A stretch of 64,000 nt of DNA from the human T2T-CHM13v2.0 reference genome, Homo sapiens, in NCBI RefSeq assembly GCF_009914755.1, contig NC_060946.1; one strand, given 5' to 3'. Position 1 is the first letter of the stretch. Every line of letters begins with the position of its first letter. A model generated the notes under the pieces. The model had not been told where the DNA came from, searched no databases, and saw nothing but the letters and a program-made list of their open reading frames with translations. This document shows positions 26,819 to 48,912 of the stretch, one piece after another. The translations under genes and the position numbers were made by a program.

Positions 26819-26859
26819 CTACAGGGGCAAAAACCAAGAGGATGAGGGGATCTCTGAGT

Positions 26860-27060
26860 CAGACCGCCTGGATCCACATCCCAGAGACTAGCTGCAAGGC
26901 CTGGGGAAGACTGGTTCACCTCTCTGGGGGTCAGTTTTCTCCTCTGTAAAGTGGGAGGTATAACAGATTCACTCCTACAGTTGTCTCTGAGCTTTACAGC
27001 CGGTAATGTGTGCAAAGTACTTCGCACAATGCCTGGCACATGGTAGGTGATAATAAACAG
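26860..27060 (+). mobile_element. MIR SINE
   Basis: TCAGTTTTCTCCTCTGTAAAGTGGG..TAAC and GTACTT.GCACAATGCCTGGCACATGGTAGG. Confidence 0.75.
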
Positions 27061-28070: not shown

Positions 28071-28574
28071 ATTCTTATAATGGGGTAGTTATGCCTGTCT
28101 CCTTGTGTTGCTGTAGGATTTCATGAGATAACATATAAGGAACCACCCAGAATGTTGTCTGGCACATAGTAACTGCTCAATAAATCACAACTGGATGCTA
28201 TTGAAGATAAAGTTACCTGAGTTCTCTGAGGCTTGCTCTCTTCAGCTGAAAATTCTCCCAAAATATATGAGATGAGACCCTACTGTATTATACAGGGTTC
28301 ATAAATAGCACTCCCCCTTTTCCCTTCCCACAGAGTGCAGTGAATAGAAGACACTTCTCTGCACCCCAAAAGCTCCATGCTGATTGCGAGAAGGAAATGC
28401 TGGATGGAGGGGTTCCTGGTACCACTGTGAGGGGTGAGATTTCCCCAGATGTCTAGAAATGAGGCAGGGGCCCGACATCTTCCACCCCCACTAAGGTTAC
28501 CTTGCAGTTCCTAGCTGGCTCTATACTTCCTAGAAACTGCCACTTTTCTGCCTCCATTACCTCATAGCCCAGTC

Positions 28575-29087
28575 AGCACTATCATCATCATCACCATGAT
28601 CACCACCACCATCCTTACAATCACCAACACTATCATCGTCGCCATCACCATTCTTACCCTCGCCATTCTCACCATCATCAACACCAGCATCTTCACCATA
28701 ACTATCACTATCGTTATCACCACCTTCACCATCACCATCCTCACCATAATAATTATTGTCACCCTCCTCATCCTCATAATCGTCATCATTATCATCATTA
28801 CCATCACTATCATCATCACTATCACCATTCTCACCATCATCATCCTCATCATCATCACCATTATCCTCACCATAAATATCACTATTATCATCACCACCTT
28901 CGCCATCACCATCCTTATCATCACCATCACAATCACCACCATCACCATTCTCACCATCACCATGTTCACCTTTACCACTCTCACCATCATCATCACCTTC
29001 ATCATCCTCAACATAACTATCACTTCATTATCACCTCCACCTTCACCATCACCATCCTCACCATCATCATCACCACCATCACAATGA
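28575..29087. repeat. Degenerate (CAT/CAC)n trinucleotide tract, copy 1
   Basis: ATC/ACC triplet low complexity with recurrent CATAACTATCAC sub-motif. Confidence 0.95.
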
Positions 29088-29094
29088 TCTTTGC

Positions 29095-29700
29095 TACATG
29101 GAACCATGAATTCTGGGTATGAGGGCTCTTGGGTCAGGGCATCGAACACATCTTGTAGGATAGAAACCCAGCCCCTCAGGGTCTCACAGTTGGTGAAGTA
29201 ACTGATTCTTGTGAGGTCATGTTCCTCTGAGTGATGTGGGATGTCACAAGACCAATAAATATGGGCTGAAGCCCATGGCATCACTTCTTTTTTTGTAAAA
29301 TAAGCTCCATCATCAGTAGCAATTGCATGATAGCAGAGAATAAGAACTCAGCAAATGTAAATAATTTGATGCTATGAGAAGCATACGAAGTGGAGTCCAT
29401 ATTCTGATATGCATCTATTCCAGTGAGGGCAATTCTTTACCACTTCCATGAAGGAAGGGAAAGAATATTATTACAACATTACCAGAAATCTGTCTGGTCT
29501 AGGCAAGGTAGTTCCTCTTTCCAGGGTCTCAGCATTGCTCATTGTTGGCAGTCAGGGCACTCATCTGGGCAGTAGGCAGCACTGCTGCAGGGAAGTTCAT
29601 GTTATTGGAAACATGTACCATCTTCACCTGCTACCATCGCCACATTGTCCATGAACCCACTGGGCAAACGATGAGGAATCTGGGAAAAGTTCTCATAACC
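29095..29700 (-). mobile_element. ERVL/MaLR internal fragment
   Basis: GGAACCATGAATTCT, GACCAATAAATATGGGC..CCCATGG, TCTATTCCAGTGAGG and CCATGAACCCACTGGGC resemble ERVL/MLT internal sequence in antisense. Confidence 0.45.
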
Positions 29701-29714
29701 AGAATATAATCATC

Positions 29715-30170
29715 CACATCAGGATATCAGCATTCACCCAACACTACGGTCCAATCAACAGATGCTATAATCTCATCCAAATTTTCTCAGGTGTGCCCTA
29801 AATACATTTTTTTGAACTTTGTAATCCAGGATCCAATCCAGGATTTCCCATTGCATTAACTGTCATGTCTCTTAAGCTCCTTCAACCTCAAAGAGTTCCT
29901 CTGTTTTGCCCTATTTTTCATAAACTTAAGAGTTTTAAAGAGCATAAGCATTTATGAAGGATGTGTTCACCTTTTTCCATCTGATGTGTTTCCAACATCC
30001 AGACTTAGGTCATGTATCTTTCAGAAGAAAACCGCAGAAATAATGCTGTGGTCTTCCTAGGACATCACAGCAGGAGGAACATGATCAAGTTTGAGCCAGA
30101 TTTCTCCACCACAAAGTTATCATTCTTCCAATTGTAATTGACAAGTATTTCATATGAAGATATTAAATAC
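29715..30170 (-). mobile_element. L1MC-type 3' fragment
   Basis: CCAGGATCCAATCCAGGAT..CATTGCATT.A.TGTCATGTCTCTT. Confidence 0.6.
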
Positions 30171-30189
30171 ACATACACATGAGTGTATA

Positions 30190-30395
30190 TTTATATGTAA
30201 AATACATACAAAATATTATTTCAATGTCTAACCAACATAAAAGTTATTAATTAGATATGTTTAATTTTATTTCCTACTAAGTTTTCAAAATCTGGTGTGT
30301 GTTTTACCCTGACAGCACATCTTGGTCCAGCCTAGCCACATTTCAAATGCTTAATATTCACATGGCTGTGGCTACCATATTTGTCAGGGCAGCAC
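30190..30395. mobile_element. MER33/MER3-like hAT-Charlie remnant
   Basis: AAATATTATTTCAA..AAAATCTGGTGTGT..ACAGCACATCT..CTAGCCACATTTCAA.TGCT..GTGGCTACCATATT. Confidence 0.7.
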
Positions 30396-31639
30396 TAAAG
30401 CATTAAGGAACTTCTTCCTTGGAGAAGTTCTAAGCTTTCAAAATGTTTGGCAAATACATTTTATAAAATTCTTCAGAATCCATAAATAGGCAGTTACACA
30501 TTTAGAAAGCCATAGAATCCAACATGACATTAAAAATGAATCCCTCAAAAAAAAGAAGGTAGGCAAAATGTTCTTCAGACCAAATGGACAAATCAATTAT
30601 GATTACCTAACATGCCCATTATTATTTATTAACATCCTTCATTAATACCCCCAAACCCCATCAACAGGTAAATGAATAAATGCATTGAGGCCTATCTGAA
30701 CAATGTCCCAATTCCTTACCATTCTTACTTCTTTTGCAAGCAGAAAGACTCAGTATTACCAAAGACTATTCAGATAGTTTGTTCTTATGCCAGTAGTTGT
30801 AATTTCCTGGAGGTCTATATGATATCAATTATGTACTTCAATACTTCTCACAAGTACTTTTCCTGTTTGGCCATTTTCTGCAGTATATCCATGCTCCCAT
30901 TTTCTATATTCTTTTATTTCTATCCTAGACTTTTCTTTCATCCTATAATTCTTTATCCTAAAAATATTAATTTAAGGATAACATCACAAAATAGTGTATT
31001 TCTTCAGATGATACTCCAAATTGATGCTTAATATACGGAAATGACTATCATGGACATAACCCACAACATGTGAAATGTATGGCTGATTCTACTGACATTA
31101 TAAAGGAAAGTTAATGACAACTGAGTTTCTAGTCATTTTCCACCCAACCAGTTGCTTATAAAATGGCAAGGAGTTGTAGATATGTACACAGTGGCTATTT
31201 TTTGGTGGGGTGTTCAGCAATTGTCCTCTTGAGAGCCCCCCTTTTCTTTGAGGGCCATTTGAATGAGCACCAACTGGGCCTGACCCAACCTACCAGCCCC
31301 AGCCCTAGAGGTGATCATGATGTCCAGCTCTGGCAAAATACTCTACCCTTGGATCATAGCAACTGTTTCAGTACTTTTTTTTTGGAATCATCAGGAAGGA
31401 CTCTTGCTTTTTCTACCACTGTGGTCTGTGAGGACAAAGTAAAGTGGGTTATCTGTAGCACTATCTCTTGCTACAGACAGAGAAGAGAGTCATCTTCAGA
31501 AGGAAAAAATGAGGCTAAAACAAAAGGAGAAGTGTCAAGAGAAAGAAGGAGAAAAATTTCTTGATGATTTTATGTAAGCCTCTGGGTCCAGCTATGCATG
31601 ACAGAGACTTGGGTTAAAGCTCTGTCACTTATAGGATCA

Positions 31640-32690
31640 TTGACTTAAATATAAAATAAAGTATTAAAAGCTATGAACTTTTAGATGAAAATACAGAAAA
31701 AAAATCTTTGTATTATTCAATTAATAAAAAATGTCTTAGATGAAGCCCCAAAAACCAAATGCACAAGAACAATTAATAAATTGGACCCCATGGAAATTAA
31801 GAGCATCTGCTATTTGAAAGATAGTGTTATGAGAGCAAAAAAGAAAACTCAAGGGGAAAATACTGGCAAGTCTCATATCTAATAAGGGATTTGAATCCAG
31901 AGTATATAAAGAAACTATTAAATTTAATAATGAGAAAATAAGCAAAGAAAAAAACAAAAAAGGAAGAAGCAAAAAAAATGTGAACATACACTCTACCAAA
32001 TATATACAGATGGCATGTAAGTACATAGATACTACATATTATTAGGCATTATGGAACCACAATAAAATACTATTGTACACACATGAAAATGTCTAAAATT
32101 TTAAAAGAAGGCCCATACAAACTGTTGGCAAAAGTGTGGAATTCTTATATACTGCTGATAAAAATATAAAATGGTACAACCATTTTGGCAAACATTTTGA
32201 CAGTCTCTTAAAACTAAACCTAAACCTATTAGCTATTACACTCCTAATATTTACTCAAAGTTAGAAGAACTTATGTACATGAATGTTCATTGCAAATGTA
32301 TTTGTATAATTCCAAAACCGGAAGCAATGCAAAAACCTATCAACAGGCAAATGGATATATAAATTGTGACCGATCTGCACAATAGAATACTACTCAGTAA
32401 TAAAATTAATGACTTATTGATGCCTGCAATATAGCTGAATCTCAAAATAATTATGCTGTGTGAAAGATGCCAGACCCCTCCAAAAAAGGGTCCATACTAC
32501 ACTTCATTTATATAAATGTCTAGACAAGGCAAACTATTTTATAGTGACAGATTGGTGATTTCCAGGGAGAGTGGTAAGGTAGGAAGATACAGAAAGTTTG
32601 GGATTATAAAAGGGCAAGGGGAAACTTTTATGAGTGCTGGATATGTTCATTATCTTTATTTTGGTGATGGATTTGCAAGTACATATAAAA
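31640..32690 (+). mobile_element. Old L1 (L1MC/ME) ORF2 end and 3' UTR
   Basis: CATATCTAATAAGGGA..TCCAGAGTATATAAAGAA, AAATGGTACAACCA.TTTGG, GAATCTCAAAATAATTATGCTG. Confidence 0.8.
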
Positions 32691-33018
32691 AATAACACAC
32701 AATGGAAGTAGAAACAGTATTTTTGTTTCTTTCTTTAAAAAGCACAATTTACTTACTATTGGGATGTGTGTGCCTGTTGGGCACACAGCACAACTTTTCA
32801 AATCTTAAAATCGGACTGGATCTCAACCACTGGACCTTATTCCTATTCCACACTGACTTTAGCACAATACCTCCTTTCATCGCGGTAATTAACAACACCC
32901 ACCCTAAAGGTAAAGAAATGCACTTCTCACTAACTACTTTTGAAACTATGAACTGCCTCAGGCTAGTAGTTCTTAAGGTCTCCAGCAAATGTTGCTTTGT
33001 TTTCCTCAAAAATATACA

Positions 33019-33184
33019 GCCTGGGCAACATGGCAAAACCACGTCTCTACTAAAATTACAAAACTTAGCCAGGCATGGTGGTGCATGCCTGTTGTCCCAG
33101 CTACTCAGGGAGGCAGAGGCTGCAGTGAGCCTAGACCTCACCACTCCACTCCAGCCTGGGGGACAGAGTGACACCCCCATCTCA
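33019..33184 (+). mobile_element. Partial Alu (AluJ-like)
   Basis: GCCTGGGCAACATGGCAAAACC..CCCAGCTACTCAGG..CACTCCAGCCTGGG. Confidence 0.85.
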
Positions 33185-33399
33185 GGTACACTCACACACA
33201 TACACATACTCACACGCTATCCGCTGGTGCCCCTGTCAGTTAAACACAGCATCTCAGGGCACCTTAGCACACAGTGTGAGAACCGTGGTTCTAAACACTT
33301 CAATTAGAAGTGAAACATCTCTGGCTGGATTTTTAGAATATTTACTTTTTAATGTTTTATATTATATTTATTTTGTATGTTTTAATTAATTTATCTGAA

Positions 33400-33860
33400 T
33401 ACAAGAATCCAGACATTTGGAAGTAAAACAATGGAAAACATGCCTACAAACACTAATCAGCACAAAGCTCATGTTGCTATGTTATTATTGACAGTTTAGA
33501 CTTAAGCAAAGAAATATTGCTAAGATAAAAAAGATTTTACGATGTCAGTCACTAGAAAAGTATGCCAATTTTAAATATGTATAAATATAAAATATCCCTT
33601 CAAATTATTTACTAAAGAAACTGATATAACTAAAAGAAAAATGGACTAATCTACAATATAGATTTTAACATACCTTTCAATTACTGATGGAACCAACAGA
33701 AAACAATCCATAAGAGAAAGGGAGATTTGATGAACACAATGAACAAACTTGACATAAACTGACATATACAGAACGCGACACTCAACAACTATTGAATACA
33801 CATCCTTTTCCAGTGCATGTATCATATTTACCAACATAGATTATATGTTGGAATTTAAAG
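33400..33860 (+). mobile_element. Old L1 ORF2 (endonuclease region) remnant
   Basis: CTGACATATACAGAAC..CACTCAACAAC..GAATACACAT.CTTTTC.AGTGCA..CATATTTACCAA.ATAGA. Confidence 0.65.
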
Positions 33861-35339
33861 GGACTCATCACAGAGTATTCAGTCGTGGGATTTTGCCTAA
33901 ATTTGTCTGGCCTTCAACAGGGTTCAAATACAGTTAAATTCTTATTTCATCTAAAGAGTCCTATCCTTTTTTTTTTTTTTTGGAAATTTTACTGCAACAA
34001 TCTAAATTTGCATAACAACTGAACCCAGCCCTTGGAACTTGAAGTTTATTCTAGCCAAAGGCAGATTAAACTGTCTAAGTAGTAATGTCCTTCAAATTGT
34101 TGTCCCCTGTTCCAGTAACAGAGTATAGCTCCAAGAAGCTAACAGACTGTTTGTCCTTCATAGTATACATTCTATGTTACATCAAAACACGGTATAAAGC
34201 CTTGAAATCAGCAGCAGAGAGAAAATGAGATCAACAACCATCTAGCTGTGACTTCACAACTTAGTAATTATGCTTTTAGCTGACTCCTTTACTTGATTCC
34301 TAACTGCTTATTTCTGGCAAGGTAGCACTAATCCCTGACTAAGTTGACCTTTTAAGAAGTGAGTGGAACGAAAAGGCTCTACCACCAGTGATCAGTTTAA
34401 CAAGCTGCAACACTAGTCACTGGCTGCAACTCTAGTCACTGGCTGCAACTCTTATTGTGGGTTTTAAGAGCTCAGAATTAACATGGAAATACTGTTGACT
34501 CCAAAAGAAACCCAGAAATCTCTGGGAATCCAGCAAAGATAGAAAGGGTCTTCTCAATAGTCACCACTCATACTTTGCTTTGTCTTGGTAACTATTTTTA
34601 TTACATACGGAGAATATCAAAAAAGTATGCCTTTTCCTCATTGTTAATGCTAAACTTAAAATGGTAAGGCTCTTGCAGGTTGAAACCCCCAGGCTCTCAC
34701 TGGCTCTTCAACAGAAGGCAGTGAATTCACCTGCAAGAGTGATCACCCAAAAAGCTTCCAGGCTGGACAAGTTGGGACTCAGTTCTTGCAGTTCCCAAAT
34801 TCACAGTTCTCTTGGGACACGGTTATTTTTGGAGCTCCTGAAGATGAGAAATTCCACCCACGAAATTCTGTTTATGAAAATTATTCACATCTAATTATCT
34901 CAGGAGACATTAACACAGCAATGTTGAAAATTTTCCATTAATTGTTAATCCACAGAGAAAAACTGAACAATTATTTTTTAAAATATGAAAAGCTTCATAT
35001 AATACAAATTATACTCCCACATGTGATTCAATTTCTACTCATTAATGTCAGAGAAGTTAATAATTATGAATTGCCAGTGGTTAAAAAAAATAAATCATTC
35101 ATCATTGGAGAAGTACAGAAGGTTTAAAAGAGATAAGAATTAGCTTTTGGCTTTGAGGCGTTTTACGCTTTCCAAAAGGTTTTGCTCTTTTTTTTGCTCA
35201 TGGCTTTCTCTCTCTCTCTCTCTCTTTCTGATTTCAGTTTCTTTTGATTTCTCCTGCTTAGAAATGGTGAGAGAACTTTGGATGTGGAACGTGGAGTAGG
35301 AGTAACACGAAGTGAGGGTCTGCACTTGGGGTGGTCAGC

Positions 35340-36250
35340 ACTGCGGATGCCCAGCAAAGGCACTGCCTGGTCCACATCCCGGGGGTGTCTCTGTGCCCCA
35401 GTCGGCATCGCAGCTGATGGTGAAACTTTTGGTGTGGCACAAGAGTGTCCACAAACTTTGGAAGGTATCTGCTGCATCCTCCATGGCCGTGTATGCCTGC
35501 CGAGGGCGATCTTCTCGGGGAGCGGAAAGTCCTGTTCATGGGGCAGGGCTGGCTGGCTGGAGCCACTTGCGGGGCACAGCCCTGGCGGAGGTTCAGGCGG
35601 CCCCGGTTTCGCAAGCGGCTGTGAATAATGCCTCCTTGGGGCCGGAGTGGTACCAGGAAGGCTGCAGACCAGGGCTGACCAGCAGGCAGCATGGTGGCCG
35701 CGATGGAAGGTGACGGGGTTCGCAGCGCCAGGGGGCCCAGCAGACCCCAAGCCCCGGCATCCCGCATCGCCAGCAGCACCGCGGGGAGGCCTGGCGCTGG
35801 TGTCGCGGCGGCCACTGCATGAGGCCCACGACCCAGTCCCAGAGGCCAGCCCATCGTCAGCTAACATCAGGAACTCCGGGCCAGCTGAGGCCCGGGCCCC
35901 AGGGGCAAGACAAAGGGCAGAGGGTCCGCAGGCAGGGCCAAGAGCCGGCAGCGCAGGCCTGGCTCCACCGCCACGGAGCTCGCAGGGCGCAGCAGGCACC
36001 GGGCAGCGACCAGGGCTTCCAGAGGAGGCTGCGCACCCCCGCAAAGGCTTCTGCCGGGCGTCCAGCTTATCCGCGGGGACTCCACGTGCACCCCCTCCTC
36101 ATTGTCCTTGTCTAGGGCCACGGCAAGGTCCTACCTCCCATGGCGTGACTCCGGGGGTGTAGGAGCCTGGGCTGAGCAGGTGGAGTAGGGTGAGCACCGC
36201 CAAGAACTCAGCGAGAGTGGCGCCCCAGGGCGGCACAGGAGGCCGCATTT
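35340..36250. promoter_or_regulatory. CpG island / GC-rich non-repetitive segment (candidate promoter or first exon of a non-coding transcript)
   Basis: Abrupt rise in GC and CpG density in AT-rich surroundings. Overlapping Pro/Ala/Gly-rich ORFs with no recognisable domain. Confidence 0.65.
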
Positions 36251-37089
36251 AACGTGTCATTCATCTCAAAGATTTTATGACATCTTCTTTTTTTGACATC
36301 TTATAATATCTATAACGTTTATTATATCTTGTGATATAATTATTAACAGCACTTCATTGTGATTATGATTATTTTTATACCAACACATCTTCAATTATTA
36401 ATATTCGCAGTTGCTGAAGAAAAATGAAAACGACTAGTTTTGAAAGCCTTACTTCTGCCAATGGAAGCACATTCCAGCATGTCGCCAACGCAATCCACTT
36501 TCCACCACTTTCACAAGAAACGTTACTGCACAATTTTACTATCCTACCCTTATATACTTTGTGTGTGTGTACTTGTGTGTATGTATACATGTTATATATG
36601 TAATAAATATATATATAATATATATAATAAATATATATGTAATAAATAAATATATAAAGTATGCCACAGATGAACAAGTATTAGAAAATTAAATGCACAT
36701 AGGTCATGTCAGTGCTATGTATAATGTGGTGTACTAAGTATAGATGTTCAACAGTGTGGGATCTAGGCTGGAACAACACTCCTAATCTTAAGCAATTCTT
36801 TCTAGGTTCAGTCTCTGGAAATAATGCTTTGTATCAAATGTGCAAGAAAATTAATGGGTTTTAAAGACTATTCTATGTCAACTATAACATTTCATTTGGG
36901 AATTTCTGTCCCTTATAATATCTACCTCAGTTTGGATGGATTCCTTGAGGCCTGGTTTATTTTTCTTTTCCTATCTACATATCACTGCTCAGAGTGATGA
37001 ATGGAGTTGTATTTTGAATAAAATATCTAAGCATCCTTTTGTGAGCAAGGAGCATGATGGTATTTAGGCCTACCATTTCTTGTTACGGT

Positions 37090-40000
37090 GGTTACGGTTA
37101 TGGTGGGGCTGGGGTATTTACCTGGAGCCTGGATGTCCACTGGGACATGATACCCACTGGGATTTTTTTGTGTCAACCTTTTCTCTGATGTCCTCCTGGG
37201 GACTGGGTATCCACCTAAGGCCTGATGTTTACCTGGAGCCAGATGTGCACCTGAGGCCTGATGTCTATCTGTGGCCTTATGTTCACCTGGTGACTGATGC
37301 ACATCTGAAGCATAGTTATTCACCTGGGGCCTGATATCCACCTGTAGTATGGGTGTCAACCTTAGGGCTGACGTTCAGCTGGCATCCACTGTCTACTTCG
37401 GGCCTGGTGTACACATGGGGCCTGGGCATCCACCGGACACTTGATGTTTAATATGGTCTGGAGTTCTCTTGGGGCCTGTTGTACCCTGGAGCCTGGGTGT
37501 ACACCTGGAGCCTGATGTCCCAGGTGGACACCTGGGTCCCAGGTGATCTTCAGGCCATAGGTGAAAACTCCAGGCTCTAAGTGGACAACAAGGCCCCACG
37601 CTGATGTTTACTGGGGCCAGATGTCTACCAGGCCCCAGCTGAAAACTCCAGGCTCCAAGTGGACAACATGGCCCCAGGTTCCAGGTAGACACTGGAATCC
37701 AAATCAACACCAGGCCCCAGATGGACACCCAGGCCTGTGGTGGACATCAGACTCCAGAAGGTCATCTGGCTCTAGGTGAATATCAAGCCCCAGGTGGATA
37801 CCTAGTCCCCAGGTGGATATCAGGCCCCACTTTGACACCTGTCCCTGCGTAGATACCTTGGCCTCAGGTGGATATCCATTCTCTAGCTAAGCATCAGGCT
37901 CCAGGTGGACCCAGGCCCTAGCTGACTGGGGACTGGTGTTCATATGGGGCCACATGTCCATCTGGGCCCTGGGTGTCAACTTGTAGCCTGATGTCAACCT
38001 GGGAGCTGGTGTTCACCAGAGGACTAAAGTCCTCCTGGTGGCTGATGTCCAACTTGGGACTTTGTGTCCACCTGGAGACTGATGTCCACTTGGGACCAGA
38101 TGTCCAACTGGAGCAAGATGTCCACCTGTAGCCTAGAACTTCACCTAAGGCCTGATGTTCCCCAGGGCCTACAGGGCCTGTGTATCTACCTAGGGACTTG
38201 TGTCCAGGTGGGACCTGAGTTCCATCTGGGGCCTGGAATTAACATGGGACCTGATGTCCACCTGAGGCCTGGGTGTTCCCCTGGAGTCTGATATCTATCT
38301 GGGGCCTGGGTGTCCTCCTGTGGTCTGATGTCCACTTGAAGTCTGGTGTCCACCTGGGGCCTGGGTGTCCACCTAGGAACCTGATGTATACCTGAAGTCT
38401 AGTATCTACCTGGGTACTGATGTCTACCAGGAAAGTGATATAAACCTGGGGACTGAAAGCCACCTGGGCTCCGAGTGTCCACATATGTTCTGATTTCCGC
38501 TTTTGGCCTGAGTGTAGGTCCTGAGTGCCACCTGGGTCCTGATGTTCACCAGGAACCTAGGTATTCACTTGGGGCTTGCTGTCCACCTGGGGCCTAATGT
38601 CCACGTGGGACCTGGTATTCACCTAGAGCCTGGGCAGCCACCTGTGGCCTGATGTTCAGCTGGTGACTAGGAATTCCACTAAGGCTTGATGTCCACCTGG
38701 GGCATAGGTAACCACTTGTGGCCTAGTGTTGCCCTGAAGCCTAGGTGTCAACCCAGGGCATAATGTCTTCTTGGGGCCTGCCGTCCACCTGCAGAATGGT
38801 GTCTGCATAGAGCCTGGTATCCACCTGGGATCTGGTGTCTGCCTGGGGCCTAATGTCCACCTGAAGACTGAGTATAGACCTCAGACCTGATGTATGCCTG
38901 GGGCCTGTTTATCCACCTGGGGATGAGCATTCATCTGGGGCCTCATGTCCACTTAAGCCCTAGGTGTCAACCTGGTGCCTAATGGCCACCAGGGATCTAT
39001 GTACTCACTTGGGGCCTGGTGCTCCCATAGGGCCTAGGTATACACCTGGGGAATGATGTGCAGGTGGAGGTGGATGTCTTCCTGGATGCTGGTGTTCACC
39101 TGGGGACAAGGGTCTCCCTGGGGACCGGTGTTTATCGGGAGCCTCATATGCACCTTGAACCTGCTGTCTACCTAGGGCCTGATGTCCATGTTAAGGCTGG
39201 GTGTCCACCTGGGACCTGGTTGTCCACTTGGGGCCTAATGTCCACCTAAGACCTAGTGTTCACCTAGGGCCTGGGTGTCCACCTGGAGCCTGATGTTCAG
39301 CTGGAGATGCATCCACCCAAGACCTAGGTATCCACCCAGGGTCTGGTGTCGAACTGGGGTCTTGTGTCCACCTGGGGACTAGATATCTACCCGAGGCTTG
39401 ATGTCCACCTGGAGCCCGATATCCACCTCAGAGCTGGGTGTCCACCCAGGTTCTGGTATCCACCCAGAGCCTGGTGTTCATCTGGGGCCCAGTGCCCACC
39501 TGGAACCTGGGTATCACCATGGGGCCTGGGTGTCCACTTGGAACGTGATGTGCACCTGGGACCTGAGTTTCCACCTAGGGCCTGATGACCACCTGAGACC
39601 CAGGTGTCCACCTGGGGTCTGATGTCTACCTGAAGCCTAGGTAACCACCTAGGGCATGATGTTACCTGTGCCTTGATTTCCACCTCAGCCTGCTGTACAC
39701 CTGGGGCCTGGGTGTCCATCTGAGGCCTGACGTACACCTCAAGTCCAGTGTCCACTTGTGGCCTGATGTCAACTTGGAAGCTGATATCCACCTGGGGACT
39801 GATGTTCTCCTGGGGCCTGATATCCAACTGGGATCAGATGTTCACCTAAGGCCTGGAGTTAATCTGGGGCCTGATGGTCACCAGGGTCCCAGGTGTCCAC
39901 CTAGGACCTGATGTCCACCTGGAGTCTAGTATCCGCCTTGGCCCTGATGCTACTTGAGGCCTGGGTGTCTTCCTAGAACCTGAGTCCCCAACTGGGCCCT

Positions 40001-40285
40001 AATGTCCACCTGAGACCTGGTGTCCTTGTAGGGCGTGATATCTACCTAAGGCCTGGGTATCCTCCTGCAGCCTGATGCTCACCTGTAGGCTGGTGTCCAT
40101 ATGGGGCCTAGGTGTCCACCTGTGATCCTGATGTACACCTGGAGTCCAGTGTCCCCTTGGTTACTAATATGTACCAGGAAAATGGTATATACCTGGGGCC
40201 TGATATACCCCTGGAGCCTGTATGTCCACCTGAGCCCTGATGTCCACCTGGGGCCTGGTGTTTACCTGGGGCCTATATCCACCCA
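37090..40285. repeat. Degenerate 18/19-bp minisatellite (GGGGCCTGATGTCCACCT / GGGGCCTGGGTGTCCACCT), ~3.2 kb, with an inverted block at ~37520-37925
   Basis: The unit is visible throughout. The inverted block reads AGGTGGA(C/T)A(T/C)CAGGCCCC. Confidence 0.92.
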
Positions 40286-42829
40286 CTACCCAAAGTCAAG
40301 TTGGGAAAAGGGCCCAGGATAGGTGAGGAGTACAGAAGAGGGACCTCATTCATAAGAAATTCTGCTGTAGAATGGGTGCTCTAAGCTCTTAAAACAGCCT
40401 CGGCCTCAGGAAAGTCTGTCCAGGGCATAGGAAGCCCACACACAGGGTGGGATGACAAGTTCGCATCTGGCCCTGCTGGGAGACCTGGGGGCCTCTGCCC
40501 TTTTGGCTGCGTTGTCTCCTGCCTCTTAGGGTTGTGGGATTCTGGGCCCTGATTGCAGCAGTTGGATTCACTTAGCTCTCCTCCCCTTTTAGCATTACTG
40601 TCTTCTGTAATAAACCTCTCACTTTGATCTGCCAGGCTGTCAAATGCTTTGATTACCCTCTCTGTTTTATTCCAATGGTTCATCAATTCAAATATCCACA
40701 ATAGAAGGACAGATTTTAGTCTCTTCATACAGTGAGATATTTCACAGCTATTAAAAAAATAAAATAAATGCTTGTATATTGATATGCAAAGTTGTCCCAC
40801 ATCAATAACTTTTAAACACATTTTATGATCCCACATCTATATCTATACATAATGTTTGCCACTGCTTAAACGAAACAAAATCTAAGCTTTAGACTCCAAA
40901 TGGAATTACAGGGGAGTCTTGATGTCTGTGTTCTGCAGTTCTGTCAAGTTTGAAATTGTGAAATAAACATGGTGCCTTTCCGGTAGCCACTCAGAATTCC
41001 TCCTCTCTTTCCACAAAGCATTGTCACCCTCCCTGTCCCATTTGCCCCAGCCCCGTGGAGCTTGCTGAGCTGGCACCATCATCTCTTGTAATAGACAAAG
41101 ACATTGAGAACCAGAGAGGGGAAGCACCTTGTTGACATCCCACAGCTCTGAGTCAAAGTGGACTTGGACTCCCTTACTAGCTGTTTCCTAAAGTCCAGGG
41201 AGCCCTGGAGGCCCAGGAATGTAAGGGCCAGAGCCTGGGGCTTTCTGTCCAGAAGTAGGGGAGGTGGGGCTACAGCTCATGGCTTGAGTGCATTTCCTCT
41301 CAAGTACAATAAGGGCTGCTTTGTAGATGAAAAATATAAATGGCTGCCTGCAAATTTGTCAGGTAATGTGTTTGTCTCCCCTATGATACTGTAAACTTGG
41401 TATAAGCAGGGACCTGTCTGAATCACCCTAGTGTCCCCAGCACCAAGGCAGAGCCTGACATAGAAAATGAATGATTTCATTAAATACCAACACCTTCTAG
41501 GTGCCAGGTACTGCTCTAGGTGCTGGAATCTGCAGTGAATAAGATACCCAGAATCCCTGCCCCTGTGTAGCCCTCACTGTAGTAGAGCAGAACAGATGAT
41601 GAATAAGTAAGCATGCAGGGTGTGAGATGGGCGGGAGAGCTCCATTTTGGAACCGGGTAGTGTGCAAAGCGGACACTCAGGAAAGAACGTGAGGGTTGAG
41701 CTGTGGAAATGATGGAGAAAAGTCGCCCCTAACATGAGTGCAGACACTACAGCTACAATAACAAGTGAAGGTGGAGAAGGAAGCACAGAGGCAAGCAGCT
41801 GGGGAGATGTGGGGGTGGGATCCAGGGAAGGGTCTCTCTTTATTGCATCTATTTTCAAATTGAAATAGGAAGCAAGGCAGCAGGAGTAAGGAAGCCTGGG
41901 GAAGGTTTTAGAGGTTTAAGGAGGAAGGAGAAGGCACGATACTGTTGCTTGGGGACAAGGCAGCACTTCCAGAGCTGGGTGTCTGGGCTCCAGGGCAAGT
42001 CACTTCATCTCTTCCTGTGCCAGCATCTCCTCAGCTGTGAAATGGTGATTATTATAGAACAGATTCATAGAGTTTTATGATAATTAAATCAGTTGGTATT
42101 CATAACATGCTTAGATTATATATATCTTTATTAAGATAACAAAGAAGTCTGGCAGACTTATGGACTCAGGAAATGAATGAGTTTGTAGGACATCATCCAG
42201 GGCCCACTGGAGGTTTGGGCTTGATGACTAAATGAGAGCAAAAGGCACGTGTGTTTCTCTCTGGCTGTGCTCAGCCACCTGACTGCAGGGCTCAGCCACC
42301 TGACTGCAGGAGCAGAGGGAGTGGGTGGCTGGTTTTCAGCAGAGTGCAGTTTTGCCCTGGGAGTAAAATCAATTGTGGGACAAGAGAGTGGAGAGTGTTA
42401 GAGAGGGTAGATGACAAGCTGGGCCATATAGTCTCAGCTGGGAGGAGGGGAAATTTGCAAGAAAGTGGGTGAGACACAAAAGTGAAAATTTGGAGTCATT
42501 GAAGTGTGTTGGATTTGCGAGGCAGCTGGAAAAAGGAAAGTGGTGGTCAAAAAAAGCGTGTTTGAAATTGAGGGTCTGGAGTAGCTACAGTTTCTGCAGT
42601 GACAAGGACAAGAATATACAGGTAGGAGTGGGTGACTCAGGGAGAGTGGAGACAAGGTCTCTAGGGGTGGAGGGACCAAGAGCCAGAGCATGAGGAGGAC
42701 TCTCTATGTGCATGTTGGCATGACCTCAGCAGGAGAAAGTGCCCATGAACTGGGAGCCAAGTCTTCAATGCATAGGGATGTGGCCCTGGGTGCAATTTGA
42801 CGGCAAGAGCTTCAATATTGATTCCCTTT

Positions 42830-43453
42830 GTGTGTCACCGTGTCCTCGGGTAATTTTTCTTTGTGAGAACATCACAAAGTGTGGTTACAGACACCTCAAT
42901 ATTGTACCTACTGTACACCTAGGCTCTATGGCACAGCCTACTGCTCTCAGGCTGCACACCTGGGCACAGGTTACTGCAGTGAATACTATTGGCAGTTGTA
43001 GCACAATGGTCAGTATTTGTGCATCTAAACATATCATGAAAAGTACAGTAAAAGCATAGTATTGCACTATATACAAATATAGTATGGTACCTAGACATGG
43101 TGCACTGGTCTAGGACACTTACCATGAATGGAATGTGCAGGGCTGGAAGCTTCTCTGGGTGAGTCAGTGAGTGGTGAGTGAAGGTGAAGTCCTAGGGCAT
43201 GACTGTGCACTACTGTAGATTTTATAAACACTGGACACTTAGGCTACACAACGAGATATATATTTCTTTTTCTATAGAATTATAAATCTTTTTTAATAAA
43301 TATATTTTTAAAGTAACTCTGCCATAACATTACAATTGTTATGTCACGGGGCTAGGCAGTAGGTGTCTTTCAGCTCCATTATAGTTTCATGGGTACACCA
43401 CTGCACACGTAGTCTGGGTTGACGGAAACATTATTTCGTGGCACATGAATGTA
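42830..43453 (+). mobile_element. Tigger3 (Golem) DNA transposon derivative
   Basis: CCTACTGTACACCTAGGCT.TATGG, CACTTACCATGAATGGA, CTGGGTGAGTCAGTGAGTG, TTTCAGCTCCATTATA, GTTGAC.GAAAC. Confidence 0.88.
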
Positions 43454-44152
43454 TTTTTATGGGAGAGAAGGATGATGAGCTGAAAGAGGGAGGCAATGAG
43501 AAGCAAGGAGGACCTATCCTGCTCAGGCCCAGGGAAGGGCTGCAGCAGAGGACAGCAAGGCAGCAGTGTCCTTGGGGGATCAGGCCTCTTACTCACAGGA
43601 AGGAAGAAAAGGAAGAGTTCCCTGGGGCTGCTGGAAACCTGGGGGCTGCTCGTGCTGGAGCAGGATTTTGAGGACATGCAAAAGGGTTTCAGCAAGGGAG
43701 GGAGGGAGGAAGGAACTGGGGAGCGAGGGTCAGCCCAAGATAACCAGGCCTCTCCCAGGAATCTTCTGGCCACTCAGAAGCAGTGGTCATGCCCAGTTGA
43801 GCCCACAAAGGGCACCCAGTGCCCAGCGTGAGAACCTGGCCTGCCTATTGCCCAGGCCTGAGGCAGCCCAGCCATTGCTGGTACCTGCTGTAGCCCCTAA
43901 GATGGATCAGCCTGGCCCGGTCCTCAACAGCCCTCACTGAGGCAGGTAAAAACACAGGCACCTGTAATAAGAGGCAGGCAGAGGCAAGTCACATGGCAGT
44001 GGCAGACCAGGTCTGCAGGAGCCCAGTCAGATGGGCACTGAATCCAGGCAGGCTTTCTAGAGGCAGTGACTCAGGATTTGTGTTCCAGTTGTGATGGTGG
44101 CACATCCAGGAAGCAGCACATGGTCCAGCTGGGCACATTGGGACTGGAGGCT

Positions 44153-44230
44153 GTTTTTTGTTTTCGTTTTTGAGATGGAGTCTCACTCTGTCTCCAGGCT
44201 GGAGTGCAGTGGCATGATCTAAGCTCACTG
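44153..44230 (-). mobile_element. Short 5'-truncated Alu
   Basis: TTTTTGAGATGGAGTCTCACTCTGTC.CCAGGCTGGAGTGCAGTGGC, flanked by GGAGGCTG(G)TTTTT repeats. Confidence 0.8.
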
Positions 44231-44839
44231 GAGGAGGCTGGTTTTTAATGAGTCTTGAGGCCAAGGCAAGGGTCATGACCAGGGTCCAGCCTCAGCAATG
44301 CACTCACCCCTTCACCCTGGGGCACTGCTGCAGGCCCACCATCACCAGCCTACATTTGCTCCCCTCCTGCCCTCTCTTCCCAGGAAGCCCCTCACCTGTC
44401 ACTTCATGAAGAATATGGAAGCCAAGGAGGTCTTCTTCAGGCATTCCTCTCCACCCATGCACTTCCTCCCTCCCTGCCAGCTTCAAAGGAATTGATGTCC
44501 AGAGAGACCCTCCCCAGTTGCCTCACCTTTCCCTCAGCCTCTTCCAGGAACTGTCCTCTGACATCTCTCTGTCTAGGTCTCCCTGTCACTCTTGTGCACA
44601 CCAGGACTGTTCTCCCTTTTCCTGTCAGCCGCTGAGTCCACTCAGATATCTTCTGCTTCCCAAAATTAAAATTACAAACCAAAACAGAAACAGCTTCCAT
44701 GACCTTACACATTGTAGACACTTGGCTACAGCAGTGAATGACCTAGACAAAGTCCCTTTCCCCATGTAGCCCTCATGCTAGTAGAGTGAAACCGATAATA
44801 AATAAACTAGTCAAATGTTCAGCATGTGAGTTGGTGATG

Positions 44840-44980
44840 AGAGCATGGTGCTTCATGCCTGTAATCCTAGTGCTTTGGGAGGCCGAGATGTGAGGATGGT
44901 TGAGGTCAGGAATTTGAGACCAGTCTGGGTAACATAGTGAGACCCTGTATCTACACAAACTGAAATAAAATAAAATAAAG
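44840..44980 (+). mobile_element. Alu monomer (FLAM-like)
   Basis: ATGCCTGTAATCCTAG..GAGACCAGTCTGGGTAACATAGTGAGACCC plus (TAAAA)n tail. Confidence 0.8.
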
Positions 44981-47289
44981 GAAAAGTGAAGGAGGATAGA
45001 ATGTATCAGTGGGAAAGGGGGATGGGAGAGCCACATTTTAGACAGGGTGGTCCAGGAGGGTAAAGCTCCAATCACTATTCCTCTGGCCCATTCCACATCT
45101 ATCCCCATCCCACCCCCTGCACAGTGCTTGGGTCAAAGCCTCTCAGTCCTGCTTGTATTTCTCCAAGAGTGATCCAGGGTCCAACTGCATCAGAACAGTG
45201 GGGTGAGGTCACAGCCCCTGCCTGTGAGAAGTGCAGATTCCTCTTCCTGGACCAGAATTCCTGGGAACTGGACCCAGGAATTTCCCAAGATCTCTGGGGG
45301 ACTCTGAGACAACCCAAGGTATGGGAGCTGCAGATTTCCTCCTGAAAAGGGAGCACTGTCTCAAGGGGTGCAGGTCACTCAGCTCTACCTTGTAGCCACC
45401 AGACTAGTCTGAGCCTTGGAGAATGCTGCTCTTTCCTCCTGGAATGCCCTTCCCTGTTTTCCTTGCCGGGTAACTCTTACACATCCCTCAAGACCCAACT
45501 CAAGGGCCACCTCCTCCTGACGTCACTCCCTGAACTTCCTCCTGTGTTTCCACTCTCCTCTTCACCAACTGATGTTGACATTTCTATGGGACCATCTCTC
45601 TCTCTCTAGACCAGAAAAGCCTACTGTTGCGGCCCCCTGTAGAGCAATTTGTGTCAGTCTGGGGAGAGTGGATTTGGAGCCCAACCACCACTGAGGAAAA
45701 TCTGTCTGATGGACATGGTGGGTTCCAGCCCAGACGCAGGGGTCAGCGAGGGGTGGTGTGACAGTGAGCACAGACCTTGGGTGGTGGTGACAGTGGCTGT
45801 CATGGGGAGGAAAGGAATGGAAAAGGGACCTCATGGGAGCAGAAAGAAAGGCCTTAGCTGCAGATGGGCAGGACCCCACCAGGAATCCAGAACCCGCATC
45901 CTAATCCCAGCTCTGCTGTAAGTCCACAGTGGAACCCTGGCAAAGACTTTCCCCTTTCTGAGCCTCATTTTACTCATCAGTAAAATGGTGACTATAACTC
46001 CAACTTCACCAAGGAGATGCAAGGCTCAATGAGATAATGGATCTGAAAATGCCTTATGTTTCATGGCACAAAGGAGAGGGATTCCTGACATGCGACAAGC
46101 ACAGGGTGAGAGGAAGGATGGGGTCTGTAAATGGCCAGGTGGCAGCCCCACCCCTCCACACACACAAACACCCACCGTATCACCCACGCTGGTGATTTTC
46201 CCAGGAGGACCCCCAGCCTGCAATTAGCACTGCCAGGTGGGCAGGGAGGGCTGCAGTCCCATTACAGGGGTGAGGAAACAGGCTGCGGATGGTCCCACAG
46301 GGAATTAGGAGCAGAGTCTAGCTCCCCATGGCAGGCAGGGAAGATTGAAGTTGCTGCCTGGAAAGAGGAAGGGAGACATTGACTGGCACTCCGTGATTTA
46401 GGTGAGAAGCCCAGGCTCAGCCTGGTGACTTGAGCTTCCTGATGTAGAAGTTGAAGGATGCAGAGGAGACAGAGGGCAGGAGGAAGAAGATAAGGAAGAG
46501 AACAGCAAACTGGAGTCACTACAGGACACTAGCTGCTCCAGGCTGCTCTGTCTCATTCTAAGAGAAAAGGAAAAGTGGGAGAGGGGATCACAGATCATGT
46601 CCAGATTCCTCACTGGCATGGATGCTGCTATGGAAACAAAGATGGTCCAGGTTTGTGGACCTGGAAATCTGTGTTTACAGCCAACACAGTTGCTGCCCGA
46701 GACAGCCCCACCTGAAGACCCCAGAGCTGCCCCAGCTTGCCAGGCTTCCCGTCCTCCTGTCCTCCTGTTATCACCCCATGCTGCTGAGAACCTGCCTGGC
46801 AGGCTGCCCAGCCAAGGCCGGGGCCTAATCTCAAGTGAAACTGACATGTCCCTGTGAGGGCTGAGGAACATCCTCTCTCCCCACAGAGCCTCACTCAGGT
46901 TCTCATCTACTTCCTTGGGGTCTGCCCCACCTCCCTCAGGAGTTTGGAACCACATACCGTTCTGGAGAGGACCTCTCACTGCTGCCGAACCTGTCCTCCA
47001 GGATACCCACAAGTGTTCATCTCGGTCGTGGCTAATTAACTTATCATATGGTAGTGAACTACCTTCTGGGGCCCCAATATTTTGTTTATTTTTTTAAAAT
47101 AAAATTAGTACCATTGTTTATTTTCTGAATGTGCAGAAATATTTGTCTGATTAATATTTACATGCCCTTTGGGAAAACTTTACAAAATAAAAAATATGAA
47201 GGAGAATCCTACCACACAGAGATAATCACTTTAATTATTTTTCTATTCATATTTGCACATACAGGTATATATGGGATCATGCTCTGTAT

Positions 47290-47700
47290 CTGTTGGGAGT
47301 GCATTAATCTGAAAGTTCAGCCACTTAAACAAAGGTTCATTTTTCTTACATAGTTAAGAGTATCTATGGTTCCTGGCTATGGTTCACTGGTTCAACAATA
47401 TTAGGCCCAGCATCTTTGTGAGTCTATTGCAATTTAGCTTATGGCTGTAAGACGGCTACTGCAGCTCCAACCACTACATGAGTTTACAAGGCCAGCAAAA
47501 GCAGTCACTTCTGTATTCTTATTAGAAAAGCAAGAACTTCAGAGGTGACCCCCAGAGGATTTCTCTTTAGGTCTGGAAATCTGTGTTTAGATTGGCCAGA
47601 ACCTGATCTCATGACCATCCCTTACACTAGAGAATAGCATTGTCATGATTGACTTTGGATCAAACATAATTTATTGACTGAGAGTGCACATGTGGTTCCC
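47290..47700 (-). mobile_element. Old MLT1 LTR
   Basis: AAGA.GGCT.CTGCAGCTCCA, CCCCAG..GATTTCTCTTTAGGTCT..ATTGGCCAGAA. Confidence 0.6.
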
Positions 47701-48269
47701 CCCAAAGAAGATCAGGAAAGGAAGGAATTTACAGTGTGTACTACAGCATGCATGCTGTTTTATAAACTGCTCTTTCTCTTAATGGCATATTTCAAACATC
47801 TTTCCATACTAAGAAATATAAATTCAGTCATTCATTTAACAACAAATTATTGAGAGAGTACTGTGTTCCAGGAACTTAACTTGGCATGGAGGACACAATA
47901 ATGTACATAGTATACTCCTTGCCTCCATGGAGCTTAGGATCTAATGAGGGATACAGAAATTCATCAAAGAGGTTCACAAAGAAATGTAAAATTACGATTG
48001 TAATTTGTGCTGAAAAGGAGGGAGGTGTGTGGTGCGTGAGAGCAGTGACAGGAGATTTGACTCAATCAGGAGGGTCTGTGTTCTGAATGGCCATAAGCCG
48101 GCCCCTTGCCTAGCTGTAGCACTATTATTTAGCCAATCTCTTATTGCTGGACATTCACATTCTTCCCACATCTTACTTTCTATCATCAATGAAACAATAA
48201 ATACCCTTCTCTAAGTACTGCTTGGCACACTTGTCTGATTACTTCCTCGGGATAAATTCCTAGGGTAAA

Positions 48270-48398
48270 GCCAGGCACCATGGTTCATGCCTGTAATCAC
48301 AGCTACTCAGGAGGCCAAAGTGGGAGGATCACTCGTGGCCAGTAGTTCATGGCCAACCTGGGCAACATAGGGAAGTCATGACTAAAAAAAAAAAAAAA
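48270..48398 (+). mobile_element. Alu monomer (FLAM-like)
   Basis: GCCAGGCAC..GGTTCATGCCTGTAATC..GGGAGGATCACT..CCTGGGCAACATAG plus A15. Confidence 0.8.
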
Positions 48399-48450
48399 TC
48401 CTGGAAGAAATGAACATTTCTTAGATGTCGAATTGCCAAATCAAGGGGTG

Positions 48451-48912
48451 CACCATCACCATCCCCATACTCACCATCACCATCCTCATTATCGTCATCA
48501 GTCTCACCCTCACCATTCTCACCAGCATCAGCAGCAGCATCCCCACCATAACTATCAGTATCATCACCACCTTCACTATCACCATCCTCACCATCACCAT
48601 CATCATCACTATCACCACCACCATTTTCACCATCACCATCCTGACCATCACCATCATTATCACCTCACCATCACCATCCTTACCATCACCATCACCATGC
48701 TCACTTTCACCATTCTCACCATTCTCATCATCATCCTCCTCAGCATAACTGTCACTATCATCAGCACCTTCACCATCACCTTCCTCACCATCACCAATAT
48801 TATCACCATAACTATCCTCACCATCATCCTCAACATAACTATCACTATCATTATCACCACCTTCATCATCACCATCCTCACCATTATCATCATCATCACA
48901 ACCACAATTATC
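48451..48912. repeat. Degenerate (CAT/CAC)n trinucleotide tract, copy 2 (homologous to 28575-29087)
   Basis: Same triplet composition and the same ordered variant motifs as copy 1. Confidence 0.93.

What the first reader, a model, noticed from the sequence alone, without database searches (positions are those of the whole stretch)
28575..48912. Two homologous (CAT)n tracts act as direct repeats around a 19-kb insert: possible integration of a circular DNA
Seen: the tracts share ordered variant motifs beyond simple low complexity. Examples are ACCCTC.CCATTCTCACCA.CATCA.CA.CAGCATC..CACCATAACTATCA, CACCATG.TCAC.TT.ACCA.TCTCACC and CATCATCCTCAACATAACTATCACT. All four flanks differ, and the outer flanks lead to BSND exon 4 and exon 1. 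Inference: A-[CAT]-X-[CAT]-B is what recombination between a circular intermediate and the chromosome at a shared repeat would leave. This predicts that X is circularly permuted, with sequence left of 48451 joined through a CAT tract to sequence right of 29087 at the donor locus. The repeats could also mediate recurrent 19-kb deletion. This is the most novel-looking structure in the window.
Basis: partly seen in the sequence, partly recalled or inferred. Interest (0 to 1): 0.75.

Follow-up and report, generated by a model that had tools for sequence, protein, structure and literature searches.

The report
Rearranged old BSND pseudogene, duplicated minisatellite
The two CAT-rich tracts are two old copies of the one minisatellite in intron 1 of the BSND gene, and they flank a 19-kb patchwork of DNA inside an ancient, broken BSND copy now repeated near several human centromeres; this is an ordinary relic of old rearrangement, not a recent or active insertion.

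Summary
The tracts lie at 28573-29082 and 48451-48904 and align end to end. They share locus-specific motifs in the same order. They are flanked by BSND exon-4-like and exon-1-like DNA.

The similarity is weaker evidence than it looks. Unrelated CATCAC-type minisatellites score up to 343, against 365 for the pair.

The parent BSND locus on chr1 has one tract in intron 1, so the 19.4 kb between the tracts is extra. That block is a patchwork:
- an ERV-like piece with one relative on chr19;
- 5.5 kb from chr4;
- about 1 kb from chr17q;
- a 3.1-kb minisatellite with an 18-bp unit;
- 8.1 kb that lies 13.5-32 kb downstream of the tract at the parent locus.

The parent order D-z-g'-C-T-E has become g'-C-T-[patchwork]-D-T-E, and both new junctions sit at the edges of the tract.

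All pieces are about equally old (K2P 0.23-0.27 to their parents). All 12 full copies in this genome keep the insert, and all 8 copies read at the junctions have both tracts and both junctions.

I read this as one ancient, local, duplication-type rearrangement of a pericentromeric BSND pseudogene. The donor junction predicted for circle integration is absent from this genome. The tracts are too diverged (81-86% identity, longest exact match 25 nt) to drive recurrent deletion. Interest is low to moderate.

The parts
24988..28460 (-). Block C: 3' part of an old BSND copy, matching chr1 54891295 down to 54884365. Exons 2-3 are missing through a 3.1-kb gap at 27141/27144.
   Evidence: blastn map, 74-76% identity. 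K2P 0.240+-0.010. The chr1 exons 2 and 3 fall inside the chr1-only stretch 54885663-54888810.
26684..26815 (-). BSND exon-4-like remnant.
   Evidence: PF15462 positions 157-200, 21.5 bits, E 0.26, below the cut-off. The placement rests on colinearity with chr1.
28573..29082 (.). Tract A: a full-length copy of the intron-1 CAT/CAC minisatellite. Its left edge is the original edge next to block C.
   Evidence: Present with both junctions in 8 of 8 copies read.
29083..29701 (.). Junction J1 (about 29083-29100), then piece R, which looks ERV-like by my reading of the sequence.
   Evidence: Only non-paralogous match is chr19 21930692-21931268, 72%. The alignment starts around 29067-29150 and there is no CAT tract on chr19.
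29696..35155 (-). Piece Y: copy of chr4 123589061 down to 123580693.
   Evidence: Four colinear HSPs at 76-78%. K2P 0.227+-0.008.
35231..36235 (+). Piece U: copy of chr17 30503421-30509834.
   Evidence: Four colinear matches at 71-80%.
37173..40283 (.). Piece M: minisatellite with an 18-bp unit, with an internal stretch in reverse orientation. Origin not traced.
   Evidence: TRF rows with periods 18, 37 and 55. Inverted pairs I3, I9, I20, I21. No tandem repeat in chr1 54910001-54920000.
40353..48448 (-). Block D: copy of chr1 54916066 down to 54897442, which is DNA downstream of BSND at the parent locus. It includes an Alu-monomer-like element with an A-tail (48269-48393) that chr1 also has.
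   Evidence: Colinear HSPs at 67-78%. The end-point alignment runs to 48448. K2P 0.271+-0.008. D occurs once per copy, 14 of 14 candidates scored.
48451..48904 (.). Tract B: second copy of the minisatellite. It lacks about the first 20-28 nt, and its right edge is the original edge next to block E.
48905..54059 (-). Block E: 5' part of the old BSND copy, matching chr1 54882955 down to 54878040, with an exon-1-like piece at 52331-52441.
   Evidence: blastn at 72-77%. PF15462 positions 1-39, 37.7 bits. K2P 0.249+-0.008.
24983..24988 (.). Junction with an unrelated duplicon (W) that cuts the BSND block short on the left. It is found only in the chr22 copy and two chr14 copies.
   Evidence: Seven W copies on chr9, 12, 15, 20 (three) and 7 stop at query base 1504, which is window 24983. 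In the chr17, chr20 and chr7 copies the BSND block runs on to the equivalent of chr1 54894802.

Best explanation
SHOWN. The window holds an old, dead copy of the chr1 BSND locus. It belongs to a pericentromeric and acrocentric segmental-duplication family with 12 full copies in this genome. The parent locus reads, in window orientation, D - z (2.65 kb) - g' - C - T - E, where T is the single CAT/CAC minisatellite of intron 1. The copy reads g' - C - T(A) - [R, Y, U, M] - D - T(B) - E. Block D has changed sides, z is gone, pieces from chr19-like, chr4 and chr17 DNA sit beside D, and T is present twice. The new junctions lie at the two edges of T. Tract A ends where the tract normally ends. Tract B starts about 20-28 nt after its normal start.

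INFERRED. This was one ancient, local, duplication-type rearrangement within a primary 38-kb chr1-derived duplicon that lay next to other duplicons (R, Y, U, M). There are two likely routes:
- A single replication-based event with serial template switches (FoSTeS/MMBIR-like), or rejoining of breaks across two sister chromatids. In this route the tract is copied twice because the departure point was its far edge and the re-entry point was its near edge.
- A tandem duplication whose junction is T|R, followed by a 13.4-kb deletion from the end of D to the start of T.

In either route the tracts are a by-product of overlapping breakpoints at a fragile minisatellite. They are not attachment sites. 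The event came before the family spread. The DNA does nothing today.
For: Parent locus:
- It has one tract, between Barttin exon 1 (chr1 54879500-54879601) and exon 2 (54885925-54886026).
- It holds only one CAT-type tract in 110 kb.

Map of the window against chr1, chr4, chr17 and chr19.

Left boundary of the block:
- g' continues to the equivalent of chr1 54894802 in the chr17 (two), chr20 (two) and chr7 copies.
- All five stop at the same query base.
- The 2.65 kb next to it on chr1 is unique and absent from the copies.

Tract structure:
- Each tract has one head module and one tail module in the same order.
- The alignment runs end to end, so the whole tract is doubled, and nothing beyond it.

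Age:
- K2P to the parents is 0.240, 0.249 and 0.271 for chr1 and 0.227 for chr4.
- Dispersed copies are 90-97% alike in unique DNA.

The event predates the spread:
- Both tracts and both junctions are present in 8 of 8 copies read.
- A versus B within a copy is 81-86% identical in every one, while A-A and B-B across copies are 94-100%.
Against: - No intermediate form exists in this genome. There is no colinear D-z-g'-C-T-E copy, no copy with two D blocks and no copy lacking the insert.
- Left of g' on chr17 there are only Alu pieces and then unmatched DNA.
- Junction microhomology cannot be judged after about 25% divergence.
- The one-step and two-step routes, a circular intermediate, and a pre-existing dimeric tract all predict the present sequence.
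- Tract homology beyond the class grammar is only modest.
- It is an assumption that R, Y, U and M lay beside D before the event.
Confidence: 0.55

Rival explanations
1. A circular DNA carrying a CAT tract plus R-Y-U-M-D recombined with the intronic tract (Campbell-type integration), leaving a tract on each side. A variant: a chr1-derived segment passed through a circle and was reopened elsewhere.
For: - Homologous recombination inside the tract would leave two complete tracts bounded exactly at the tract edges, as seen.
- The chr1-derived material is in permuted order relative to the parent (D before C-T at the parent, after it here).
- Permuted order is the signature used to infer circular intermediates in tilapia vasa. 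That paper cites cattle KIT and yeast cases (PMC3245284: abstract and Discussion passages read).
Against: - No donor exists in this genome. The right end of the insert continues into unique chr1 DNA. Its left end has only a chr19 relative without a CAT tract. No high-identity copy of R, Y or U lies outside the 12 BSND-family copies.
- A circle made from the parent segment and integrated at T would give a plain tandem duplication that retains z-g'-C. That is not seen.
- A circle of R-Y-U-M-D plus T needs two earlier breakpoints at the tract edges, so it explains nothing extra.
Confidence: 0.13
2. The tract was already an internal dimer (two 0.48-kb higher-order units) in the pseudogene copy. 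The patchwork was then inserted between the units by ordinary stepwise duplicative transposition, as pericentromeric mosaics are built. On this reading, nothing was duplicated by the insertion.
For: - These minisatellites do build higher-order repeats. The chr1 tract carries a recent 144-bp unit in about 4-5 copies.
- A and B joined end to start would read as normal tract grammar.
- Patchworks of duplicons are the rule near centromeres (general knowledge).
Against: - The insert would have to land within about 10-20 nt of the unit boundary of a roughly 960-nt array. By my estimate that is about 2-4% by chance.
- Block D comes from the same 38-kb parent neighbourhood as the host copy. That would be a coincidence for an independent transposition.
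- All pieces are of similar age.
Confidence: 0.1
3. The two tracts are unrelated low-complexity DNA that look alike only because every CATCAC-type minisatellite does.
For: Unrelated tracts align to A over its whole length at 80-83% identity and score up to 343 in size-matched windows and 362 at full length, against 365 for A-B. The motif class is common: 592 genomic matches to a 22-mer at up to 1 mismatch, against 2 for the reversed control.
Against: - A is continuous with the parent's left flank and B with its right flank, so both descend from the BSND tract.
- None of the 854 size-matched unrelated windows reaches the A-B score.
- Locus-specific 10-mers are shared 43-64 times with the 455-nt partner, against 8-38 times with unrelated tracts 1067-1727 nt long.
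- Head and tail modules are single and colinear.
Confidence: 0.03

Closest known systems
Pericentromeric and acrocentric segmental-duplication mosaics (two-step model: seeding of duplicons, then spread of blocks between pericentromeres)
   Same: - 12 full copies lie close to centromeres or on acrocentric short arms of chr7, 13, 14, 17, 20, 21 and 22.
- The block is a mosaic of pieces whose parents lie on chr1, chr4, chr17 and chr19.
- Another duplicon abuts at 24983.
- The chr22 and chr14 copies are 99-100% alike. That fits exchange between acrocentric short arms (PMC10172130: search listing and start of abstract only).
   Different: The pieces are only 70-80% identical to their parents (K2P 0.23-0.27). 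That is far below the usual 90% threshold for calling segmental duplications (definition quoted in the abstract of PMC2566985), so the seeding is much older than the classic cases.
Gene duplication through circular DNA intermediates (tilapia vasa; cattle KIT and yeast cases as cited there)
   Same: The order of source segments is permuted in the copy. This is the signature used in PMC3245284 (abstract and Discussion passages).
   Different: There is no circle junction that joins the two ends of one source segment. Foreign pieces sit at the junction. The permuted part is followed by a second tract and the colinear rest of the gene, which a tandem-duplication junction explains equally well.
Replication-based complex rearrangements (FoSTeS/MMBIR, templated insertions)
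   Same: Several templated segments, some from within tens of kb, are strung together. There is a short duplication at the point of return, and breakpoints lie at a repeat likely to stall replication. The mechanism is as described in PMC8421209 and PMC6258378 (search listing and start of abstracts only).
   Different: Those cases are recent and show microhomology at junctions. Here the junctions are too old to read, and the segments are kilobases long.
BSND pseudogenes (BSNDP symbols)
   Same: Non-processed BSND-like fragments that keep intron DNA. The symbol BSNDP3 appears in a gene list in PMC11094034 (one passage seen).
   Different: I found no description of their internal structure. One full-text search returned only that list. 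RefSeq annotates no gene in this window (hub note).

Membership tests
Campbell-type integration of a circle at a shared repeat | The insert is bounded by two copies of the repeat, each complete, with four different flanks. | tested here: met
Campbell-type integration of a circle at a shared repeat | A donor exists in which the two ends of the insert are joined through the repeat. | tested here: not met
   No such junction in T2T-CHM13. Other primates and extinct donors cannot be tested here.
Duplication via a circular intermediate (permuted copy) | Source order is permuted in the copy, with a junction joining the two source ends directly. | tested here: inconclusive
   The order is permuted. 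The junction holds 11 kb of other DNA, and 2.65 kb of the source is missing.
Pericentromeric segmental-duplication mosaic | Multiple high-identity copies near centromeres; juxtaposed duplicons with parents on other chromosomes. | tested here: met
Transposable-element insertion with target-site duplication | A short target duplication (up to a few tens of nt) and an element with its own termini. | tested here: not met
   The duplicated stretch is about 0.48 kb. The insert is a patchwork of single-copy DNA from four chromosomes with no terminal repeats found.
Processed pseudogene | Loss of introns and a poly-A tail. | tested here: not met
   Intron and intergenic DNA of the parent is retained over about 17 kb.
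Direct repeats able to drive recurrent deletion by non-allelic homologous recombination | Long stretches of near-identity. A few hundred nt is the usual requirement (from general knowledge). | tested here: not met
   81-86% identity. Longest exact match 25 nt. All 12 full copies keep 14.2-21.0 kb between the flanks. Population long reads were not available.
FoSTeS/MMBIR complex rearrangement | Microhomology or short templated filler at each junction. | not testable with these tools
   The junctions are about 25% diverged from their parents. Older or intermediate copies from other primates would be needed.

The most novel reading that the evidence does not exclude
The permuted order of the chr1-derived blocks, together with whole-tract duplication, is the footprint of an early-primate circular intermediate. 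On this reading the circle carried the BSND-downstream block plus captured DNA from other chromosomes and re-entered at the minisatellite. That would make it a human-lineage counterpart of the circular shuttling inferred for cattle KIT and tilapia vasa.
Probability: 0.12. Interest if true: 0.55.

Novelty: new member of a known kind. Interest (0 to 1): 0.3.

Why it matters
The direct importance is small. The DNA is non-functional, no gene is annotated here, and the event is tens of millions of years old. Three points are still useful:
- It is a worked example of duplicons that are far older (70-80% identity to their parents) than the usual 90% cut-off. They are hidden inside blocks that later spread between pericentromeres and acrocentric short arms.
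- It shows a minisatellite supplying both breakpoints of a rearrangement.
- It is a caution for sequence-only reading. Unrelated CATCAC-type minisatellites align end to end at 80-83% identity, so alignment alone nearly fails to tell homologous tracts from look-alikes.

Tried and rejected
- A whole-insert search of the genome (19.4 kb) was not scored. I replaced it with shorter queries.
Tracts and junctions were therefore read in 8 of the 12 full copies only. For the other 4, only the flank spacing is known.
- k-mer diagonal counts could not separate A-B similarity from the internal periodicity of each tract.
- The chr1 tract could not be used as an outgroup to decide between a monomeric and a dimeric ancestor. 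It has its own recent 144-bp amplification, and only one module can be matched.
- I looked for a CAT tract at the parents of the insert's ends and found none on chr1, chr4 or chr19.
- I looked for a second D block or other chr1 DNA left of g' on chr17 and found only Alu pieces.
- The origin of the 18-bp minisatellite was not traced (one search covers only chr1).
- A search for the GCTTTTTGC boundary repeat in the literature gave nothing relevant.
- Dating by Alu subfamily was not possible, because no repeat library was available.


Full report
WHAT IS THERE. The two tracts are real. TRF places imperfect CAT/CAC arrays at 28573-29082 and 48451-48904, and I read both with their flanks. They align from base 28 to base 506 of tract A against bases 0-448 of tract B, with a score of 357. 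Shuffles of B gave 97+-14 for 3-nt blocks, 158+-14 for 6-nt blocks and 216+-14 for 12-nt blocks, 100 shuffles each.

Each tract has one head module and one tail module. The tail carries the second string and the exact 25-nt string. The modules are in the same order in both tracts.

HOW STRONG IS THE SIMILARITY? A 22-nt word from the tract has 592 matches in the genome at up to one mismatch, against 2 for the reversed control, so this minisatellite class is common.

I compared A and B with five unrelated tracts of the class:
- Whole unrelated tracts score 209-362 against A and 213-343 against B. The A-B pair scores 365.
- In size-matched windows, none of 443 (for A) or 411 (for B) reaches 365. 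The two closest tracts average 305-322 with a maximum of 343.
- A aligns to unrelated tracts over its whole length at 80-83% identity. A-B identity is 84.3%.

Alignment alone therefore barely separates the pair from look-alikes. Locus-specific words do better. 42 of the 240 10-mers of A that are absent from all five unrelated tracts occur in B. In leave-one-out tests A shares 43-64 such words with the 455-nt partner, against 8-38 with unrelated tracts of 1067-1727 nt.

THE PARENT LOCUS. The window's own assembly could be searched. The left flank has 11 further copies at 95-100% identity, one of them in two pieces. It also has a match on chr1 at 80%. The right flank has 12 further copies at 93-99% identity, one of them in two pieces. 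It also has a match on chr1 at 72%.

Pfam Barttin hits place BSND exons 1-4 on chr1 at 54879500-54889324. Weak exon-1-like and exon-4-like pieces lie in the window at 52331-52441 and 26684-26815. A blastn map of the window against 110 kb of chr1 gives, with window plus strand equal to chr1 minus strand:
- 24988-28460 matches chr1 54891295-54884365. A 3.1-kb chr1-only gap here removes exons 2 and 3.
- 48451-54059 matches chr1 54883416-54878040.

Between these blocks chr1 has a single tract, 54882961-54884002, in intron 1. Part of that tract is a recent amplification of a 144-bp unit. The A-[CAT]-B arrangement is therefore simply the parent gene, and the 19.4 kb in the window is extra.

WHAT THE INSERT IS. 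It is a patchwork:
- 29148-29701 has one relative, on chr19, at 72%. By my reading it is ERV-like, and there is no CAT tract beside it.
- 29696-35155 is colinear with chr4 123589061-123580693 at 76-78%.
- 35231-36235 matches chr17 30503421-30509834 at 71-80%.
- 37173-40283 is a minisatellite with an 18-bp unit.
- 40353-48448 is colinear with chr1 54916066-54897442. That DNA lies 13.5-32 kb downstream of the tract at the parent locus, in the same orientation.

The alignment of this last block runs through a shared Alu-monomer-like element to two bases before tract B. On chr1 the sequence then continues into unique DNA, not a CAT tract.

In the chr17 (two), chr20 (two) and chr7 copies the block left of C runs on to the equivalent of chr1 54894802, and all five stop at the same base. 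The adjoining 2.65 kb of chr1 is unique and absent from every copy. In the window the block is cut short at 24983-24988 by another duplicon, a junction found only in the chr22 copy and two chr14 copies.

THE REARRANGEMENT. The parent order is D - z - g' - C - T - E. The copy order is g' - C - T(A) - [R, Y, U, M] - D - T(B) - E.

The two internal junctions sit at the edges of the tract. Tract A ends where the tract normally ends. Tract B begins about 20-28 nt after its normal start. The whole tract is doubled, and nothing beyond it.

AGE AND FIXATION. K2P distances to the parents are:
- C 0.240+-0.010
- E 0.249+-0.008
- D 0.271+-0.008
- chr4 piece 0.227+-0.008

All pieces are thus about equally old. 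The divergence is several times that among the dispersed copies, which are 90-97% identical in unique DNA. From general knowledge of primate substitution rates, this points to an early-primate event; that is inference.

Both tracts and both junctions are present in 8 of 8 copies read. Within every copy A versus B is 81-86% identical, while A-A and B-B across copies are 94-100%. The doubling therefore predates the spread, and there is no sign of later homogenisation.

All 12 full copies keep 14.2-21.0 kb between the flanks (my subtraction of coordinates). A thirteenth copy, on chr17 at 23.40 Mb, starts inside D at 42115. D occurs once per copy, 14 of 14 candidates scored.

MECHANISM. The sequence shows a local, duplication-type rearrangement of a chr1-derived duplicon. 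How it happened is inferred. I favour one of two routes:
- One replication-based event with serial template switches, or rejoining of breaks across two sister chromatids. The tract is then traversed twice.
- A tandem duplication whose junction is T|R, followed by a 13.4-kb deletion from the end of D to the start of T.

Either route makes the minisatellite a fragile site that supplied both breakpoints.

The order of the chr1 blocks is permuted, and this is the signature used for circular intermediates in tilapia vasa (PMC3245284: abstract and Discussion passages). But its specific prediction fails in this genome. No donor joins the insert's two ends. A circle of parent DNA integrating at T would leave z-g'-C in place.

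A pre-existing dimeric tract split by stepwise insertions is possible. It needs the insert to fall at the unit boundary, and it needs D to arrive independently from the same 38-kb neighbourhood.

No intermediate survives in this genome. Left of g' on chr17 there are only Alu pieces. Junction microhomology is unreadable at this divergence.

WHAT IT IS NOT. It is not a transposon insertion, because the doubled stretch is 0.48 kb and the insert has no termini of its own. It is not a processed pseudogene, because introns are retained. It is not a good substrate for recurrent deletion, because identity is 81-86% and the longest exact match is 25 nt.

IN PRINT. One full-text search for BSND pseudogene names found only a gene list containing BSNDP3. 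I found no description of this structure. Supplements were not consulted.

The context is the known class of pericentromeric and acrocentric duplication mosaics. For this I saw passages of PMC2566985 and only the search listing for PMC10172130. For the replication-based mechanisms I saw only the listings for PMC8421209 and PMC6258378.

VERDICT. This is a new member of a known kind, of low to moderate interest.

Noticed in passing
window 37173-40283: A 3.1-kb minisatellite with an 18-bp unit (TRF periods 18, 37 and 55). An internal stretch is in reverse orientation (about 37519-37874 against 39311-39776). It has no counterpart in the adjoining chr1 parent DNA. Its origin is unknown.
   Followed up: partly
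window 56351-58121: A G+C-rich tandem array with a 22-bp unit and a GCAAAAAGC core. From recall it resembles the GCTTTTTGC-type repeat reported at boundaries of pericentromeric duplications. A literature search found nothing relevant, so this is recall only.
   Followed up: partly
window 24983-24988: Junction between the BSND block and an unrelated duplicon. That duplicon has copies on chr9, chr12, chr15 (92%), chr20 (three) and chr7. The junction is present only in the chr22 copy and two chr14 copies.
   Followed up: partly
window 24988-54059 and its parents on chr1, chr4, chr17, chr19: All duplicons in this block are only 70-80% identical to their parent loci (K2P 0.23-0.27). This is an unusually old mosaic, below the usual threshold for calling segmental duplications.
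   Followed up: partly
G000 contigs C4 (0.10-0.33 Mb), C7 (66.07 Mb), C17 (21.82, 22.43, 27.72 Mb): Further Barttin exon-1-like fragments lie outside the 12 full copies, including four near the tip of chr4.
   Followed up: no
L011 2961-4002 (chr1 54882961-54884002): The intron-1 minisatellite of the functional BSND gene carries a recent amplification of a 144-bp unit (about 4-5 near-identical copies) that the pseudogene copies lack.
   Followed up: partly
window as a whole versus G000 C14 8.69 Mb: The chr22 copy and one chr14 copy are 99-100% identical across every piece tested. This fits recent exchange between acrocentric short arms.
   Followed up: no
window 37172-48905 versus copies on C17: The two chr17 copies are about 4.7-6.1 kb shorter than the window between the chr17-derived piece and the right flank (my subtraction of coordinates). 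The place of the difference (minisatellite or block D) was not read.
   Followed up: no
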